Positions 15,300 to 61,259 of a stretch of DNA of 64,000 nucleotides are shown piece after piece. The notes beneath the pieces were generated by a model. The model had not been told where the DNA came from. It ran no database searches and worked only from the letters and a program-made list of their open reading frames with translations. Position numbers and translations under genes: made by a program. The DNA comes from Candidatus Nomurabacteria bacterium. Its GTDB lineage: Bacteria; Patescibacteriota; Minisyncoccia; Phycocordibacterales; UBA9973. How positions within the stretch are numbered: position 1 is the stretch's first letter; each line of letters opens with the position of its first letter. Location: contig CAWHSF010000003.1 in assembly GCA_963832025.1 (NCBI GenBank), forward strand, positions 207,665-271,664. The letters are read 5' to 3'.

Positions 15300-15780
15300 T
15301 TATCCTCGTAAGCAGGCGAAAGCTGTCAGGGCGATAGCAATAGCATCCAACTCATCATCACTCTTCTTGGAATTGTCTATTTCAACCAGAATTTTCACCA
15401 TTTTTATGATTTGTTCCTTGCTCGCTCTACCGTAACCGGTCGTGGCAATTTTAATTTGTGGCGGAGAAGCTTCAAAAACCTTAAGTCCCGCACAGATAGC
15501 TTCATAAATCACTACCCCGCGTGCTTCTGCCACGTGCATGACAGTTTTTTGATTGGTAGTGAGAAATAAAGTTTCAATGGAAAGAATTTCTGGTTTGTAT
15601 TTTTTAACAATCATTTTTACTTCTTCGCCAATTAAATGCAATCGTTCACTAAAATTTAATTTGGCAGAAGTTTTGAAACATTCCGAAAAAAGCACAACTT
15701 CTCTTTTTGTCCCCTTTCCTTTTTTCTAAGATTGCTATTCCCAATCTTTCAAACCCAGGATCTATTCCTAAAATTTTCAT
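15300..15780 (-). CDS. ruvC: Holliday junction resolvase RuvC, interrupted by a +1 frame change in a T6/A6 run (15720-15725)
   Basis: The N-terminal piece MKILGIDPGFERLGIAILEK (ATG 15780) carries the catalytic Asp. The remainder (ORF 15300-15695) is in the +1 frame. The ATG overlaps the yebC TGA (ATGA). Confidence 0.75.
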
Positions 15781-16388
15781 GTTAAGTTTACCCCCACACC
15801 TATTTTAAAGCAAAAATAGGTGTGGGATTCTGCATTAGTGTAAACTTCCTGCACGTCGTCATTTTCTTCCAATTCTTCCACAAGCTTATCCAACAATTCT
15901 AAATCTTGGTCGGAGAGGGAAATTGTATTTTTTGGGATCCATCCATCAGTTTTTTCCCCGCCCGCATCGCCCTGCGAAGCATGGCGGGCAGGTTTTTGGA
16001 ATCCCCAAGTGACCGAACCGATACCTCCTAAAAGGAAACCATTTTTTGTTAAAATGTGTTTTATATCTTGGGCGGTTCTGTTTTTACTATCGGTTAAAGT
16101 TTCAATAATTATTCCGACTCCGCCCGGACCATATGTTTCATAAACAATTGCATCCATGTGCGCTCCCGGTTCACTTGCTTTTTTTATCGCCCTTTCAATA
16201 TTTTCCGCCGGCATATTTACTTTTTTTGCTTTTTCAATTGCGGCGCGTAAGCCGGGAGAGTCTTTTCCGCCGGAAAGTTTTGCTTCCACAGAAATAAAAC
16301 GTACAAGCTTGGAAAAGATTTTACTTTTCTTAGCATCCGTCATTCCTTTTTGTCTCTTAATTTGTGTCCAACTATTATGACCACTCAT
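15777..16388 (-). CDS. yebC: YebC/PmpR family transcriptional regulator
   Basis: MSGHNSWTQIKRQKG... N-terminus is typical of YebC. Carries an internal GC-rich insert and a repeat-encoded C-terminal tail. Confidence 0.85.
   Translation of the reverse strand: MSGHNSWTQIKRQKGMTDAKKSKIFSKLVRFISVEAKLSGGKDSPGLRAAIEKAKKVNMPAENIERAIKKASEPGAHMDAIVYETYGPGGVGIIIETLTDSKNRTAQDIKHILTKNGFLLGGIGSVTWGFQKPARHASQGDAGGEKTDGWIPKNTISLSDQDLELLDKLVEELEENDDVQEVYTNAESHTYFCFKIGVGVNLT
15781..15830 (-). repeat. family E hairpin repeat forming the last ~16 codons of yebC
   Basis: Coding strand reads CCCACACCTATTTTtgctttAAAATAGGTGTGGGGGTAAACTTAA. The right arm plus flank match the copy at 37431-37470. Confidence 0.65.
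15956..15992. repeat. GC-rich hairpin segment in-frame inside yebC
   Basis: ccccGCCCGCatcgccctgcgaagcatgGCGGGCagg encodes ...KPARHASQGDAGG... inside an otherwise AT-rich gene. Confidence 0.5.
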
Positions 16389-23699: not shown

Positions 23700-25949
23700 A
23701 TGCAAAAAAATATTTTTAAATTAAAGAATTTATGGGAACCAGCGGGGGATCAGCCGAAGGCTATTTCTAAGCTGGTAGAAGGTTTAGAGAAGGGAATGAA
23801 GAAACAAACATTGTTGGGCGCAACCGGAACTGGCAAAACTTTTACCATGGCCAATGTCATTGCGCAGTACAACAAACCGACGCTCGTAATAGCTCACAAC
23901 AAAACTCTGGCTGCCCAGCTCGCGCAAGAATTTCGCCAGTTTTTCCCCGATGCGGCCGTGCATTATTTTGTTTCTTATTATGACTATTATCAACCGGAAG
24001 CATATATGCCTGCTTCGGATACTTATATCGAAAAAGATGCTTCCATCAATAAAGAAATAGATATGCTTCGTCACGCCAGCACACAAGCATTACTTACCAG
24101 GCGTGACGTGATTATCGTCGCTTCGGTTTCCTGTATTTATGGGCTGGGTTCTCCCGAAGAATATGAAAAAGTAAATTTAAAACTTGAACTTGGCATGAAA
24201 CTGGACCGCATGACTTTAATGAGAAAACTGATTGAGATTCATTTTGAAAGAACCAACGCGGATTTGAGTCCAGGGCAATTTCGTTCGATTGGTTCGCGAG
24301 TGGAATTTATGCCGGTGTCGGAGACTGTCATGTATCAAATAGAATTTGGAACGTCGGACCTTAAGGGGATTCAAGGTCCGACGTTAACAAAAATAATCAA
24401 AGTTGATCCGGTATCCTCGAAAATAATCGAAGAAATAAAACCCGCCGAAGGACGGGCAGGCATTTTCATTTTTCCGGCAAAACATTTTATTACTGAAGAA
24501 GTAAAAAAGCAAAAGGCATTGATTGAAATTAAAAAAGAATTAAATAAACAATTGAAAAAATTTGAAAAAGAAGGAAAGTTGCTCGAAGCTGAGCGTATTA
24601 AGAGAAGAACAAACTATGACCTAGCGATGATTCGCGAAGTTGGTTATTGCAACGGCATCGAAAATTATTCTCGGCATCTGTCGGGTAAATTGGAAGGTGA
24701 ACCGCCAGAAACTCTGCTTTCATATTTTCCGCATAGGGCTCGAGATTATTCTCGCCGTCGTTCGCACTCCGTCCTGGAAGGGCAAGAAAGTTCTGGTCGC
24801 AACGAAGACTCCTCTGAGAACAATCTCGAACCCGATTTCCTTACGATTATAGATGAATCGCATGTTACACTTCCGCAACTGCAAGGCATGTATGCCGGAG
24901 ATGCTTCCAGAAAAGAAACCCTAGTAGAATATGGATTCAGATTGCCATCAGCTAAGGACAACAGACCCCTTAAATTTAATGAATTTGAAGAAAGAATAAA
25001 TAATGTAATTTATACTTCTGCCACACCTGGAGAATTTGAAAGATCTAATAGTAATCAAACAGTAGAACAGATAATCAGACCCACTGGTTTGGTTGATCCA
25101 GAAATAGAAGTAAAGTCGGTAAGCGAAAAAGAAGATTACAAGGGCCAAATTCAAGATTTTATTTTTGAGACAGAAAAAACAATCAAAAAAGGTTTCCGCG
25201 TTTTAGCGACCACCCTCACAAAAAAAATGGCGGAGGACCTCTCAACATATTTGAAGGATAAAAAAATCAAAGCGGAATATTTACATAGTGATATAAAAAC
25301 AATGGAACGAATAAAAATTCTCACTCAGTTTAGAAAAGGAGAATTTGATGTTTTGGTTGGAGTAAACTTACTTCGCGAGGGACTTGATTTACCTGAAGTT
25401 GCTTTAATCGGTATTTTAGATGCTGATAAATCCGGATTTTTACGTTCGGAAACAGCGCTAGTGCAAACCATCGGTCGCGCAGCCAGAAATAGCGAAGGAA
25501 AAGTTATTCTATATGCGGACATCATGACTCCGGCCATGGAATATGCTATTTCCGAAACTACTCGCCGGAGAAATATTCAGCTTGCTTATAATAAAAAACA
25601 TGGTATCACTCCGAAGACAATTATGAAAAAGATAAATGACATTACCGAAGAGTTGGAAAGTGAACATGGGAAAACAGTGAATGCGGAATTAAACCTTGAT
25701 TTGGAAGTTTTCAAACGAGCTTACGCCAAAGAGTTAAAATTAGACAAAAGTAAACTAACAAAAAAGAATGGACTAACTGAAGTTAAATTACACATGTCCG
25801 ACGAAGAGAGAAGCAACTTAGTCTATGAAAAAATAATAAAAATCAAGGAAAAAGAAATGAGTAAAGCAGTTAAAGAATTGGATTTCGAAACCGCAGCGAT
25901 TCTGCGTGATGAAATTGGAGTTTTGAAATTACGTTTGGAGAAAAAATAA
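23700..25949 (+). CDS. uvrB: excinuclease ABC subunit B
   Basis: GATGTGKTF; DESHVTLPQ; helicase C motifs; C-terminal UVR domain (FETAAILRDEI). Carries three inserted repeat segments. Confidence 0.95.
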   Translation: MQKNIFKLKNLWEPAGDQPKAISKLVEGLEKGMKKQTLLGATGTGKTFTMANVIAQYNKPTLVIAHNKTLAAQLAQEFRQFFPDAAVHYFVSYYDYYQPEAYMPASDTYIEKDASINKEIDMLRHASTQALLTRRDVIIVASVSCIYGLGSPEEYEKVNLKLELGMKLDRMTLMRKLIEIHFERTNADLSPGQFRSIGSRVEFMPVSETVMYQIEFGTSDLKGIQGPTLTKIIKVDPVSSKIIEEIKPAEGRAGIFIFPAKHFITEEVKKQKALIEIKKELNKQLKKFEKEGKLLEAERIKRRTNYDLAMIREVGYCNGIENYSRHLSGKLEGEPPETLLSYFPHRARDYSRRRSHSVLEGQESSGRNEDSSENNLEPDFLTIIDESHVTLPQLQGMYAGDASRKETLVEYGFRLPSAKDNRPLKFNEFEERINNVIYTSATPGEFERSNSNQTVEQIIRPTGLVDPEIEVKSVSEKEDYKGQIQDFIFETEKTIKKGFRVLATTLTKKMAEDLSTYLKDKKIKAEYLHSDIKTMERIKILTQFRKGEFDVLVGVNLLREGLDLPEVALIGILDADKSGFLRSETALVQTIGRAARNSEGKVILYADIMTPAMEYAISETTRRRNIQLAYNKKHGITPKTIMKKINDITEELESEHGKTVNAELNLDLEVFKRAYAKELKLDKSKLTKKNGLTEVKLHMSDEERSNLVYEKIIKIKEKEMSKAVKELDFETAAILRDEIGVLKLRLEKK
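24350..24385. repeat. 36-bp perfect hairpin in-frame inside uvrB
   Basis: AACGTCGGACCTT-aaggggattc-AAGGTCCGACGTT (13-bp perfect arms); encodes GTSDLKGIQGPT. Confidence 0.7.
24441..24460. repeat. short GC-rich hairpin in-frame inside uvrB
   Basis: CCCGccgaaggaCGGGcagg encodes PAEGRAG; shares its terminal CGGGCAGG with the yebC insert. Confidence 0.35.
24739..24830 (-). repeat. family A palindrome-ended repeat, in-frame inside uvrB (inverted relative to polA copy)
   Basis: TIR CTCGAGATT...AATCTCGAA. Encodes ...RARDYSRRRSHSVLEGQESSGRNEDSSENNLEP between conserved YFP and DFLTIIDESH. Confidence 0.8.
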
Positions 25950-36557: not shown

Positions 36558-36660
36558 GCTCAAAATATATTTTATAAAGCAATCTATCTCCGCAAGCTTG
36601 CGGAGCGAACCTGCTCGGCTACCCGCCTGCGCAAGACTTTCTAAAACATATTTTCTGAGC
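36558..36660 (+). repeat. family F intergenic palindromic element, copy 2
   Basis: Outer TIR GCTCAAAATATATTTTATAAAG / CTTTCTAAAACATATTTTCTGAGC. Inner palindrome CTCCGCAAGCTTGCGGAG (36588-36605). The core is identical to copy 1. Confidence 0.75.
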
Positions 36661-37059: not shown

Positions 37060-38590
37060 ATGGCAAAAGAAGAAGGCGGAAGGGAGAAAAACAAGGAAAC
37101 AATAGTCAGATTTGAAAATGTCTCATTTGAATGGGGAGTAACATAAGCCTATTTTAGAAGAGGTGAGCTTCACCATTCGGCGAGGCATGAAACTCACGTT
37201 GATGGGGCAAAATGGCGCTGGAAAAAGCACCATTTTTAGTTTAATCTCTGGGCTATCGGTCCCTGAGTCTGGAATAATCAACGTTGTTAAAGGGGTGAGT
37301 ATCGCAAACTCCTTGCAAGTAATTCCTCGCGACCAAATGGATTCTACTGTACGAGAATTTTTCGCAAATTGTTTTAAGGAAAAAGTTTATGATATTGACC
37401 CACGGATTGATGACATTTTAGAAGTAGTAAACCCCCACACCAAAAATTTTGGTGTGGGGGTAAATCTTAAGGGTCACGCGAAAATTCACGACAGAAAAAT
37501 AAATACTTTCTCTGGTGGGCAACAAGCGCGACTGCTTTTGGCTTCCGCCCTCATTCGAGATCCAGATTTACTATTATTGGATGAACCAACAAACAATTTA
37601 GACAAAGCCGGAATTGCTCACCTCACAAATTTTCTAGTAAATTACAAAAAAACAGTTCTAGTTATTTCCCACGATGCGGAATTTTTAAATGCTTTCACTG
37701 AAGGAGTGCTTTATTTAGATGTTTATACAAAAAAAGTTGAACAATATGTCGGTAACTATTTTAATGTGATGAAAGATATTACTGCGCGAGTAGAAAAAGA
37801 AAATATGAAGAACGCACAACTTCAAAAGGAAATTCAAGCCAAGAAAGACCAAGCAAATGTGTTTGCATATAAAGGCGGACGTTTGAGATTGGTAGCAAAG
37901 CGAATGCGAGAAAAGGCTGAAGAATTGGAAGAGGAAATTGTGGACGTTCGAAAAGAAGATAAAGCCATCAGGCCTTTTGTTATTCCTTCACAGCCAGACT
38001 TGATCGGGGAAATTTTAAACATCTCTTCTTTTACCACGATGGTGAATGGAAAAATTGTAAAACGGAAAGCACGTATTTCTTTAAATAAAAAACAACATTT
38101 GCTTTTACAAGGACCAAACGGAATTGGAAAAACAACACTCTTGGAAAGACTGGCGAGCGGAAAAGCCGAAGGAGAGAAAGTAAAAGAGGGAATACGTATC
38201 GGATATTATAGGCAAGATTTTTCCACGCTCAATTTTGAACATTCAGTTTATGAATCTTTGGCAGAAGCGATGATTGAGGGTGGAGAAAAATTAAATGAGG
38301 AACATATGCGTTCAGTTGCCGCGGGATTTTTAATTACTGGAGAATTTATTCGCACAAAAATTAAAGATTTATCCGAAGGACAAAAAGGGCTAGTGGCTTT
38401 TGCGAGATTGGTTTTACAAAAACCCGGACTCCTCATTTTGGATGAGCCAACAAACCATATAAATTTTCGTCACTTGCCAATAATCGCAGAAGCATTAGAT
38501 AAATATGCCGGTGCAATGATTCTCGTTTCCCACGTGCCCGAATTCGTCAAACAAATTAGGATTGATGAAGTACTTGATCTAGAAAAGTAG
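37060..38590 (+). CDS. ABC-F family ATPase, N-terminus displaced by a +1 frame change near 37138-37144
   Basis: MAKEEGGREKNKETIVRFENVSFEWGV (ATG 37060) stops at 37144. The +1 frame continues HKPILEEVSFTIRRGMKLTLMGQNGAGKST. Second module GPNGIGKTT. No TM domains. Confidence 0.8.
37431..37470 (+). repeat. family E hairpin repeat, in-frame inside the ABC-F gene
   Basis: ACCCCCACACCAAAA-a-TTTTGGTGTGGGGGT plus the flank AAATCTTAA; encodes NPHTKNFGVGVNLK. Confidence 0.7.
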
Positions 38591-55758: not shown

Positions 55759-55905
55759 AAATTTGGACAAACGAAAAAGCCACAGAGACTCTTCCTAAAT
55801 AATTTAGATAAATCTAAGTGACTTGTGTGATTTGCTTCCGATTGGAAGAAATGTGGGCTTTGGGGGTCCGCGGCGGACCCCCAGTCCCGTGTTCCGCGCC
55901 TTCAG

Positions 55906-60941: not shown

Positions 60942-61259
60942 AAAAATAAGCGGAGCATATTTTTGTGCCCGAGAGCGAGCAAACTGCTTTGCTCGCGGGT
61001 AGGAAGCGAAAAGCTTTTCATTAATAGCGAGAAATTTATTTCGAGCTATTTGAAAAGGTATACTGTTCCCGTAGGGAAAGATATCCTACCGAGGGCACAA
61101 AAATAAGCGGAGCATATTTTTGTGCCCGAGAGCGAGCAAACTGCTTTGCTCGCGGGTAGGAAGCGAAAAGCTTTTCATTAATAGCGAGAAATTTATTTCG
61201 AGCTATTTGAAAAGGTATACTGTTCCCGTAGGGAAAGATATCCTACCGAGGGCACAAAT
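60929..61259 (+). repeat. 2 x 157-bp direct tandem repeat, each unit starting with the last 13 nt of tRNA-Arg(UCU)
   Basis: CCTACCGAGGGCACAAA occurs at 60929, 61086 and 61243. The intervening 157-bp units read identical. Confidence 0.9.

What the first reader, a model, noticed from the sequence alone, without database searches (positions are those of the whole stretch)
37431..37470. Family E hairpin shared by an ABC-F gene and the yebC 3' end
ACCCCCACACCAAAA-a-TTTTGGTGTGGGGGT is a near-perfect 31-bp palindrome. Its right arm and flank (GGTGTGGGGGTAAATCTTAA) recur on the coding strand of yebC (15781-15830: ...AATAGGTGTGGGGGTAAACTTAA). Both are translated in the same frame, giving FGVGVNLK in the ABC-F protein and IGVGVNLT-stop in YebC.
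Basis: seen in the sequence. Interest (0 to 1): 0.7.

Follow-up and report, generated by a model that had tools for sequence, protein, structure and literature searches.

The report
Tiny palindromic mobile element inside genes
The hairpin in the ABC-F gene and its relative at the end of yebC are two gene-less copies of a very small mobile DNA element that is widespread in ultra-small (CPR/Patescibacteria) bacteria; its roughly 300-bp full-length form carries only one 85-residue GIY-YIG nuclease gene, an arrangement I could not find described.

Summary
A perfect 15+1+15 palindrome lies in the ABC-F ORF (37431-37461), and a related hairpin lies at the yebC 3' end (15791-15826).

- **Insertion, not native linker.** About 110 of 120 ABC-F orthologues read LEVVNLKGH. 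The window has 33 extra bases: a 29-bp element, CCCCCACACC-AAAAATTTT-GGTGTGGGGG, plus a duplicated TAAA.
- **Second copy.** It inserted at the TAAA after the yebC stop. A later short deletion fused it to yebC, giving a 16-residue tail that no orthologue has.
- **Family.** Most are Patescibacteria of many classes.
  - The centre of the element varies but stays self-complementary.
  - Identical 4-nt flanks occur far more often than chance. The target consensus is G-TWWA-C.
  - Nested copies occur, and copies inside genes stay in frame.
- **Full-length form.** Members of 275-305 bp with the same ends and flank repeats carry one conserved 84-86-residue GIY-YIG (UPF0213-type) nuclease gene (85 of 119 matches). 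Rarely the ends enclose a 5S rRNA or a group I intron instead.

I read the hairpins as MITE-like derivatives, probably moved by that nuclease. That last step is inferred, not shown. I found no published description of the family.

The parts
37432..37460 (.). Copy 1: 29-bp gene-less element CCCCCACACC AAAAATTTT GGTGTGGGGG (10-bp conserved ends plus a self-complementary centre)
   Evidence: Perfect palindrome. Absent from about 110 of 120 ABC-F orthologues and from the orthologous DNA of L002/L003. Identical (29/29) in L001.
37428..37431 (.). Left copy of the 4-bp target-site duplication TAAA
   Evidence: The empty site has a single TAAA (L002 GTTGTAAATTTAAAAGG). The window has TAAA on both sides.
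37461..37464 (.). Right copy of the 4-bp target-site duplication TAAA
   Evidence: Family-wide, 37 of 102 copies have identical 4-nt flanks against 7.5 expected.
37163..38590 (+). Host gene: ABC-F ATPase (two ABC_tran domains). The 33 inserted bases (37428-37460) add 11 codons, VNPHTKNFGVG, upstream of the SGGQ signature of the first ATPase domain, and the frame is kept
   Evidence: ORF, Pfam, orthologue alignment.
15791..15826 (.). Copy 2: damaged element CCCCCACACC TATTTTAAAGCAAAAATA GGTGTGGG. The arm on the yebC side has lost its last two bases
   Evidence: The inner stem differs from copy 1 (TATTTT/AAAATA against AAAA/TTTT) but is still complementary.
15787..15790 (.). Retained copy of the target duplication (TTTA on + strand, TAAA on the gene strand). 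The other copy was lost in a deletion of about 5-11 nt that also removed the yebC stop codon
   Evidence: Empty site in L152/L154 is GCGGAATAATGCTAAACTTATTTCATG. The window reads GCAGAAT[element]TAAACTTAACATG.
15780..15827 (-). 16 extra codons (SHTYFCFKIGVGVNLT) added to YebC by read-through of the element. The new stop TGA at 15777-15779 overlaps the ruvC ATG (15778-15780)
   Evidence: All 120 closest YebC orthologues end at ...NAE except one with an unrelated extension. ORFs.
15777..16388 (-). Host gene yebC (TACO1/YebC family)
   Evidence: Pfam PF20772 and PF01709.

Best explanation
Both hairpins are gene-less, MITE-like copies of a family of very small mobile elements. The family is defined by the inverted ends CCCCCACACC ... 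GGTGTGGGGG.

Shown:
- The element inserts at T-W-W-A, preferably G-TWWA-C, and duplicates those 4 bp.
- It lands in intergenic DNA, in rRNA and tRNA genes, and in protein-coding genes. In coding genes it survives mainly when its length keeps the frame, and it is then translated.
- Copy 1 is such an in-frame insertion (29 bp + 4 bp = 11 codons) in ABC-F.
- Copy 2 went in just after the yebC stop codon. It was later fused to yebC by a small deletion.
- Full-length relatives of 275-305 bp have the same ends and the same kind of flank repeat. They carry a single gene under purifying selection, for an 84-86-residue protein that is just a GIY-YIG nuclease domain of the UPF0213/YhbQ type.

Inferred (about even odds): this nuclease, acting in trans, is what moves both the cassettes and the empty hairpins. 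One possible route is that it recognises the ends as a hairpin or cruciform and makes a 4-nt staggered cut at the palindromic target G^TWWAC.

In this window the two copies are most likely passive: tolerated selfish DNA, not a regulatory signal.
For: Insertion with duplication:
- Filled against empty orthologous sites for ABC-F and for yebC-ruvC.
- Identical 4-nt flanks in 37 of 102 hairpins (permutation mean 7.5, maximum 17 in 10,000) and in 31 of 117 cassettes (mean 4.0, maximum 12).
- Target consensus from 77 reconstructed sites: G 42%, T 90%, W, W, A 90%, C 52%.

Family and spread:
67 are labelled as CPR lineages of many classes. Others are Omnitrophota, Elusimicrobia, WOR-1 and more.
- Nested or tandem copies in L056, L070 and L102.
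- 60 of 102 copies have at least 3 further perfectly paired bases beyond the searched ends, with many different sequences.
- In ABC-F, L004/L005 carry CCCGCACACT..AGTGTGCGGG at the same site. Both differences from the window's copy are mirrored on the other arm.

Translation: 16 of 21 copies whose removal restores an open frame are multiples of 3 and are read through. All three frames are used.

Link to the GIY-YIG gene:
- L030 has a 290-bp member with TSD TCAA.
85 of 119 matches have a GIY-YIG coding sequence and 69 are intact.
- Pfam PF01541, E about 1e-18. Nearest solved structures are the UPF0213 proteins 1ZG2 and 1YWL.
- dN/dS is about 0.15.
- Independent check by protein homology only: P0344 is flanked by TCAA|CCCCCACACC...GGTGTGGGGG|TCAA. 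Of 15 homologues whose ORFs run past the core, 12 read into end-encoded peptides.

No DDE or Y1 transposase was found between such ends in about 2 Mb of fetched sequence.
Against: - No experiment, and no known precedent, shows a GIY-YIG nuclease acting as a transposase. An 85-residue protein has no obvious DNA-binding or strand-joining function.
- The window has no GIY-YIG gene. The rest of that genome is unknown.
- The size class that revealed the gene was chosen from a single example (L030), so other cargo classes may be under-sampled. The ends also enclose a 5S rRNA (L244/L259), a group I intron (L201) and unidentified inserts of 68-134 bp. The gene could therefore be a passenger.
- Only about a third of copies keep identical flanks.
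- The 29-bp copy is identical in the window and L001, although third codon positions of the surrounding gene are only 63% identical. An equally close relative (L002) is empty. This needs repeated insertion at one site, precise loss, or constraint. I cannot tell which.
- Labels of non-CPR hosts may reflect mis-binned contigs.
Confidence: 0.7

Rival explanations
1. The hairpins are an independent dispersed repeat, moved by some other unknown enzyme. The GIY-YIG gene is a free-standing homing endonuclease that parasitises them. It cuts the hairpin and is copied into its centre by repair from a filled copy.
For: - GIY-YIG enzymes are classic homing endonucleases (established knowledge).
- One member has a group I intron between the ends.
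- Cassette ends have variable sub-terminal parts like those of hairpins.
- The flank repeats would simply be inherited from the hairpin.
- Other cargo exists.
Against: - The conserved part is the outer 10 bp, while the centre where the gene sits is highly variable. That is odd for a sequence-specific homing site.
- The protein lacks the DNA-binding domain of known homing GIY-YIG enzymes.
- It still leaves the hairpin's own mobility unexplained.
- The ORF is fitted tightly between the ends, with the stop codon inside the end.
Confidence: 0.2
2. An ordinary MITE of a classical DDE insertion sequence. The IS1380/piggyBac-like pattern fits: ends starting CC(C), 4-bp duplication, TTAA-like target. 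The transposase would be encoded elsewhere, and the GIY-YIG gene would be a frequent passenger.
For: Terminal inverted repeats plus a 4-bp duplication at TWWA. The pattern of ends and duplication matches what I recall for IS1380 and piggyBac (own knowledge, not tested).
Against: - No such transposase was seen between the ends at any spacing up to 6 kb in about 2 Mb.
- 29 bp is very short for a paired-end complex.
- The only recurrent protein cargo is GIY-YIG.
Confidence: 0.07
3. A REP/REPIN-like repeat served by a Y1 (RAYT or IS200/IS605-type) transposase.
For: Short GC-rich hairpins in an AT-rich genome. A Y1_Tnp gene sits at exactly the yebC-ruvC junction in a relative (L150/L151).
Against: - That Y1 gene is flanked by a different hairpin (TACCAAGGGGAACCCTTGGTA).
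- Family E has variable duplicated flanks rather than a fixed GTAG or CGTC tag.
- It occurs inside genes.
- No Y1 gene was found between its ends.
Confidence: 0.02
4. A functional hairpin of the host, such as a terminator, an RNA processing or stability signal, or a protein binding site. A chance resemblance is the other possibility in this group.
For: Strong stems. The ends bracket a 5S rRNA in L244 like a processing stem.
Against: - Presence and absence vary among close orthologues. The element lies inside conserved coding sequence and rRNA, and is read in all frames.
- No T run follows the hairpin.
- No Rfam family matches.
- Chance is excluded.
Confidence: 0.01

Closest known systems
Rickettsia palindromic elements (RPE; Ogata et al. 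2000, own knowledge)
   Same: Selfish palindromic DNA inserted in frame into conserved protein-coding genes and translated as an extra peptide segment. No stop codons in the element.
   Different: RPEs are about 100-150 bp and confined to Rickettsia. No associated gene is known for them. Here the element is 27-50 bp, has a 4-bp target duplication, spans a superphylum and has a gene-bearing form.
Small dispersed repeats of cyanobacteria (SDR; Elhai et al. 2008, own knowledge; cited in PMC5861425 and PMC3116915)
   Same: Mobile-looking hairpin repeats of only 21-27 nt, with compensatory changes and nested insertions. They are found in varied contexts.
   Different: Different sequences and hosts. 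No gene-bearing form is known for SDRs, and an RNA intermediate was proposed for them. Here there are clear target duplications and a GIY-YIG cassette.
MITEs of bacterial insertion sequences (reviewed in PMC10969869; census in PMC11602168)
   Same: Terminal inverted repeats, target-site duplication, no coding capacity, many copies, and a longer relative with the same ends.
   Different: The size is below the 50-800 bp range given for prokaryotic MITEs (PMC11602168). The longer relative encodes a GIY-YIG nuclease, not a known transposase. That census does not mention Patescibacteria.
REP / REPIN elements with RAYT transposases (PMC3116915, PMC3733652)
   Same: 20-40-bp palindromic repeats dispersed in the genome and tied to one small dedicated gene.
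   Different: REPs carry a fixed GTAG or CGTC tag, are extragenic and go with a Y1 HUH enzyme. Family E has duplicated variable flanks, enters genes and goes with a GIY-YIG enzyme.
Free-standing and intron-borne GIY-YIG homing endonuclease genes (I-TevI, T4 Seg; own knowledge) and GIY-YIG ORFs in non-intron insertions of CPR rRNA genes (PMC11270868)
   Same: A GIY-YIG nuclease as the only gene of a small invasive DNA. Tsurumaki et al. noted that these ORFs in CPR rRNA insertions match neither intron class and do not look like homing. One family-E member lies in 16S rRNA.
   Different: The protein here is the catalytic domain alone (84-86 residues). The element has inverted ends and target duplications, which that paper does not mention.
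IS1380 family / piggyBac (own knowledge)
   Same: Ends beginning CC(C)...GG(G), a 4-bp duplication and an A/T-rich TTAA-like target.
   Different: No DDE transposase was found with these ends.

Membership tests
MITE (non-autonomous inverted-repeat transposable element) | Terminal inverted repeats | tested here: met
   10-bp invariant ends, extended by 3-10 further paired bases in 60 of 102 copies.
MITE (non-autonomous inverted-repeat transposable element) | Target-site duplication, with empty orthologous sites | tested here: met
   TAAA duplicated in ABC-F against a single TAAA in L002/L003. 37 of 102 copies have identical flanks against 7.5 expected.
MITE (non-autonomous inverted-repeat transposable element) | Many copies, no coding capacity | tested here: met
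   2 copies in 64 kb here and several per 8 kb in L011, L055 and L056. A 29-bp element has no ORF of its own.
MITE (non-autonomous inverted-repeat transposable element) | An autonomous relative with the same ends that encodes the transposase | tested here: inconclusive
   Relatives with the same ends exist and encode a GIY-YIG nuclease. Whether that protein transposes DNA is unknown.
REP/RAYT | Fixed GTAG or CGTC tetranucleotide next to the palindrome | tested here: not met
   Flanks are TAAA, TATA, TTTA, TGAA and others. They vary between copies but are often the same on both sides of one copy.
REP/RAYT | Y1 transposase gene flanked by the repeats | tested here: not met
   The only Y1_Tnp seen (L150/L151) is flanked by TACCAAGGGGAACCCTTGGTA. 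None was found between family-E ends. Whole genomes were not searched.
Rickettsia palindromic elements | In-frame insertion in conserved genes, translated | tested here: met
   ABC-F, the P-type ATPase in L055, and 16 of 21 coding copies in frame.
Rickettsia palindromic elements | Sequence family and size of RPE-1 to RPE-8 (about 100-150 bp, Rickettsia) | not tested
   No RPE sequences were at hand. Size (29 bp) and hosts differ, so membership is not claimed.
IS1380 / piggyBac-type DDE element | DDE transposase between the ends | tested here: not met
   No coding cargo other than GIY-YIG between ends up to 6 kb apart in about 2 Mb. Not a whole-genome test.
GIY-YIG homing endonuclease gene | GIY-YIG catalytic domain with conserved catalytic residues | tested here: met
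   PF01541, E 1e-16 to 1e-18. Many positions are at least 90% conserved among 35 intact 85-residue ORFs, including Tyr, Arg, His-Asn, Glu and Asn positions.
GIY-YIG homing endonuclease gene | Separate DNA-binding domain, and a conserved long target occupied only at allelic sites | tested here: not met
   The protein is 84-86 residues with a single domain. Insertion sites are diverse short TWWA sites.
Intrinsic terminator | GC-rich hairpin followed by a T run, downstream of a gene | tested here: not met
   The hairpin is followed by TAAATC (site 1) and TAAACT (site 2) on the coding strand. Site 1 is in mid-gene.

The most novel reading that the evidence does not exclude
The roughly 300-bp cassette would be an autonomous DNA transposon whose only protein is an 85-residue GIY-YIG nuclease. 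It consists of the 10-bp inverted ends, that one gene and a 4-bp duplication at G-TWWA-C. This would be a new class of transposition enzyme and, to my knowledge, the smallest self-sufficient mobile element. The 27-50-bp hairpins would be its MITEs. These have been written into housekeeping proteins, rRNA and tRNA genes across the Patescibacteria and passed to other phyla.
Probability: 0.4. Interest if true: 0.9.

Novelty: new variant of a known kind. Interest (0 to 1): 0.8.

Why it matters
- **Protein and rRNA peculiarities.** It would explain part of the many short, odd inserts seen in otherwise highly conserved proteins and rRNA genes of CPR bacteria. These organisms are supposed to have streamlined genomes.
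- **Annotation and phylogeny.** The element gives a simple sequence signature (CCCCCACACC..GGTGTGGGGG with TWWA repeats). With it, such inserts can be found and removed before annotation, alignment or phylogeny.
- **Gene flow.** The same 10-bp ends occur in very distant CPR classes and some other phyla, so the element marks gene flow between them.
- **Mechanism.** If the 85-residue GIY-YIG protein does move the element, it is a new and extremely compact DNA-insertion system with a defined 6-bp target. That is directly testable in vitro.

Tried and rejected
- Exact look-up of the window's YebC and ABC-F proteins in public assemblies found nothing.
- Rfam on the whole window gave only five tRNAs and nothing at the hairpins.
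- Viral contigs: 24 matches to the hairpin pattern, about ten of them true palindromes, so no enrichment. There were no cassette-sized matches.
- A search for a larger element with these ends (60-6000 bp, same flanks or long repeats) turned up no transposase. It found only pairs of separate hairpins, for example around ribosomal protein genes in L103 and in a P-type ATPase in L055.
- Intermediate members (68-134 bp) share only their ends with the cassettes, so they are not simple deletion products.
- An intron-like reading (removal at the RNA level) was rejected, because coding copies keep the frame.
- AlphaFold model of ABC-F from 41 close orthologues: mean pLDDT 50.8, with the insert in a segment below 50. 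It says nothing about the insert's position on the surface.
- Nine literature searches, including the bare sequence motif, found no description of the repeat or of GIY-YIG genes between inverted repeats. The library holds open-access papers only.

Full report
**The observation**

The sequence is as described. At 37431-37461 two 15-nt arms are 100% complementary with one base between them. At 15790-15826 a second hairpin has the same outer stem, ACCCCCACACC / GGTGTGGG, and a different, still complementary, inner stem. GGTGTGGGGGTAAA occurs exactly at both sites. Shuffles gave 0.24 matches on average, and none of 100 reached the three found. Both fold much better than shuffled sequence, with z between -5.3 and -6.3 as DNA or RNA. 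The ABC-F ORF (37163-38590, +) reads VVNPHTKNFGVGVNLKGH. The yebC ORF (15777-16388, -) ends NAESHTYFCFKIGVGVNLT.

**Copy 1 is an insertion**

The 120 best ABC-F homologues are 84-100% identical and come from Nomurabacteria, Paceibacterota and relatives. About 110 of them read ...LEVVNLKGH.... The window and P0001 have 11 extra residues there. P0003 has the same insert plus a second one, and P0007/P0008 have a 10-residue variant.

At the DNA level:
- The empty site in L002/L003 is GTTGTAAATTTAAAAGG.
- The window is GTAG-TAAA-[CCCCCACACCAAAAATTTTGGTGTGGGGG]-TAAA-TCTTAAGG. That is a 29-bp element plus a second TAAA, 33 bases in all.
- L001 has the identical 29 bp.
- L004/L005 have TAAA-[CCCGCACACTAAATTTAGTGTGCGGG]-TAAA at the same place. 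Both substitutions are mirrored on the other arm.

**Copy 2 is an insertion followed by a deletion**

The closest YebC orthologues end at ...VYTNAE, except one (P0207) that has an unrelated extension. The empty junction in L152/L154 is GCGGAATAATGCTAAACTTATTTCATG, in which ATG is the ruvC start. The window reads GCAGAAT-[CCCACACC...GGTGTGGGGG]-TAAACTTAACATG.

So the element entered at the TAAA after the stop codon. A deletion of about 5-11 nt then removed the stop, the left TAAA and two C of the arm. The exact size depends on the ancestral spacer. The ORF now runs through the element to a TGA that overlaps the ruvC ATG.

**The family**

By record title, the loci break down as follows:

| Label | Loci |
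|---|---|
| CPR lineages | 67 |
| Unclassified | 5 |
| Other phyla, with true hairpins | about 27 |
| Single-strand matches in high-GC genomes that look like chance | about 21 |

The CPR lineages are Saccharibacteria, Nomura-, Paceibacterota, Wolfe-, Falkow-, Giovannoni-, Sung-, Berkel-, Doudna-, Moran-, Campbell-, Buchanan-, Yonath- and Nealsonbacteria, Microgenomates and Minisyncoccia. The other phyla include Omnitrophota, Elusimicrobia, WOR-1 and two 'Deltaproteobacteria' MAGs, one of which has six loci. Some of the non-CPR labels may be binning errors.

Features of the family:
- **Self-complementary centre.** The centre differs from copy to copy (TATGCATA, AATGCATT, AAAGATTTT, AACTTTTTCAAAAGTT and others). 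Even so, 60 of 102 complete copies have at least three more perfectly paired bases beyond the ends.
- **Flank repeats.** Identical 4-nt flanks occur in 37 of 102 copies, against 7.5 expected and a maximum of 17 in 10,000 permutations. They are mostly TAAA, TATA and TTTA.
- **Target.** From 77 reconstructed empty sites the target is G(42%)-T(90%)-W-W-A(90%)-C(52%).
- **Nesting.** Copies sit inside or next to each other in L056, L070 and L102.
- **Location.** Copies are intergenic or inside long ORFs, for example two in one P-type ATPase.
- **Frame.** Of 21 copies whose removal restores an open frame, 16 are multiples of three and are read through. All three frames occur. The insert is therefore translated, not spliced, and the shared frame of the two window copies has no special meaning.

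**The gene-bearing form**

Longer members with the same ends and flank repeats exist: 68 bp in L011, 104 bp in L056, 134 bp in L089 and 290 bp in L030. The interior of the L030 member encodes an 86-residue GIY-YIG protein.

A metagenome scan for the ends 255-285 nt apart again stopped at 120 loci.
- Of 119 matches, 85 contain a GIY-YIG coding sequence and 69 have an intact ORF of 83-87 residues.
- The other 34 are mostly GC-rich matches with only the 10 searched bases in common.
- 31 of 117 have identical 4-nt flanks, against 4.0 expected.

The protein is a bare PF01541 domain (E about 1e-18). Its nearest solved relatives are the uncharacterised UPF0213 proteins 1ZG2 and 1YWL, followed by SLX1 and I-TevI. 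dN/dS is about 0.15 with saturated dS, and many positions, including Tyr, Arg, His-Asn, Glu and Asn positions, are at least 90% conserved.

At least 1194 protein clusters are homologous. Sources name them 'GIY-YIG nuclease family protein', 'putative endonuclease' or 'Excinuclease ABC C subunit domain protein'.

Two checks did not depend on the DNA pattern:
- P0344, picked by protein similarity, is flanked by TCAA|CCCCCACACCAAATTTTAGT-ATG...TGA-TTTGGTGTGGGGG|TCAA.
- Of 15 homologues whose called ORFs run beyond the core, 12 read into peptides encoded by the ends (PPHQ, NPHT, VWG, GVGV).

No such gene is present in the window.

**Other cargo**

The ends also enclose:
- a complete 5S rRNA, nested in further 5S copies (L244/L259);
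- a group I intron in 16S rRNA at the 515 region, with a CCAG repeat (L201);
- unidentified inserts of 68-134 bp that share only their ends with the cassettes.

A decayed cassette sits on the CCA end of a tRNA gene (L166).

**Interpretation**

The data show a mobile inverted-repeat element with a 4-bp duplication, and show that the window's hairpins are gene-less members of it. They do not show what moves it.

The simplest reading is that the only recurrent, conserved gene between these ends, the GIY-YIG nuclease, does so in trans. I put that at about even odds. Two points fit this reading. The target is a 6-bp palindrome with the duplicated 4 bp at its centre, which suggests a symmetric staggered cut. 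And the protein's family is related to SLX1, a structure-specific nuclease (own knowledge; YhbQ is mentioned in PMC7017083, which I did not open), which suggests recognition of the ends as a hairpin or cruciform.

The main rival is that the gene is a homing endonuclease living inside an independent repeat. A DDE insertion sequence of IS1380/piggyBac type, whose end and duplication pattern fits, cannot be excluded without whole genomes. REP/RAYT, terminator and chance readings are not supported.

One unexplained point remains. The 29-bp copy is identical in the window and L001, although the genes are 85.6% identical overall and only 63% at third codon positions. The equally distant L002 is empty. 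That calls for repeated insertion at one hot spot, precise loss, or constraint on the palindrome.

**Literature**

Nine searches of the open-access library found no description of this repeat or of GIY-YIG genes between inverted repeats.
- Tsurumaki et al. [quoted passage not shown] They also report many short uncharacterised insertions. They do not mention repeats or hairpins.
- PMC12455944 predicts transfer of a GIY-YIG domain protein from Patescibacteria to other bacteria.
- A 183,232-genome MITE census (PMC11602168) does not mention Patescibacteria.

**Verdict**

It is selfish DNA of a known general kind: palindromic and MITE-like, inserted in frame as in Rickettsia. Three things set it apart: its unusually small size, its spread across a superphylum, and a gene partner not known from any transposon family. 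In this window both copies are most likely passive passengers.

Noticed in passing
window 37060-37165: The ABC-F N-terminus (MAKEEGGREKNKETIVRFENVSFEWGVT, stop at 37144-37146) is in a different frame from the rest of the gene. One extra base near 37141 would explain this. The 100%-identical P0001 (509 aa) is unbroken, so this is an assembly error or a strain-specific frameshift.
   Followed up: partly
window 15300-15780 (- strand): ruvC is split into two ORFs (15649-15780 and 15300-15695). This is a second frameshift close to a family-E copy.
   Followed up: no
window ~15956-15991 (- strand): YebC carries a 12-residue GC-rich insert, PARHASQGDAGG (CCTGCCCGCCATGCTTCGCAGGGCGATGCGGGCGGG, an imperfect palindrome). 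It is absent from the 178-residue orthologues. Relatives carry other GC-rich inserts at the same spot, which points to a second family of short coding insertions.
   Followed up: partly
ABC-F orthologues P0011, P0016, P0021, P0023, P0042, P0052, P0067, P0103, P0112; L001 about 24 nt downstream of the family-E copy: Other short inserts recur four residues downstream of the family-E site (PARLSHSGG, GPPSRLVEA, GLPANSRA, GLSAQA) and at two further sites (LALRERGGVRV, QNKTSA). In L001 the extra 24 nt are CCCGCCTAGACTCGGCGAGGCTGG.
   Followed up: no
window 30651-30668, 32687-32704, 36588-36605: Three 18-bp perfect palindromes share the flanks ATCTAT...CGAACC: CTGGCAAAGCTTTGCCAG, CTGGCGAAGCTTCGCCAG and CTCCGCAAGCTTGCGGAG. 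Their differences are mirrored on both arms. This is another hairpin family.
   Followed up: no
window 55861-55883, 24350-24385, 60975-60996 and 61132-61153, 29195-29286, 29614-29701: Further strong hairpins: TGGGGGTCCGC-G-GCGGACCCCCA, a 13-bp stem at 24350, a duplicated 9-bp stem pair near the tRNA genes, and two long inverted repeats with 24-25-nt arms.
   Followed up: no
L150 2560-3760 and L151 2560-3680: In a close relative a Y1_Tnp (IS200/RAYT-type) gene sits between yebC and ruvC. It is flanked by TACCAAGGGGAACCCTTGGTA hairpins, with one to three tandem copies upstream. This is a different hairpin-plus-gene element at the same junction.
   Followed up: partly
L001 8432-9792: A diversity-generating retroelement (bAvd plus reverse transcriptase) lies between the cold-shock gene and ABC-F in a close relative. 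The window has nothing there.
   Followed up: no
L201 1736-2017: Family-E ends enclose a group I intron (Rfam 59.3 bits) inside a 16S rRNA gene at the 515 primer region, with a CCAG repeat. Because of the repeat, splicing after the U of CGU and after a terminal G would restore the rRNA exactly.
   Followed up: partly
L244 12860-13330 and L259: Family-E ends enclose a complete 5S rRNA. This unit is itself nested twice inside further 5S copies.
   Followed up: partly
L166 9266-9641: A decayed GIY-YIG cassette is inserted at TGGA, the CCA end of a tRNA gene.
   Followed up: partly
L152 1181-2014: A LAGLIDADG-type ORF lies directly upstream of yebC in another relative, so the ruvB-yebC-ruvC region collects mobile elements.
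   Followed up: no
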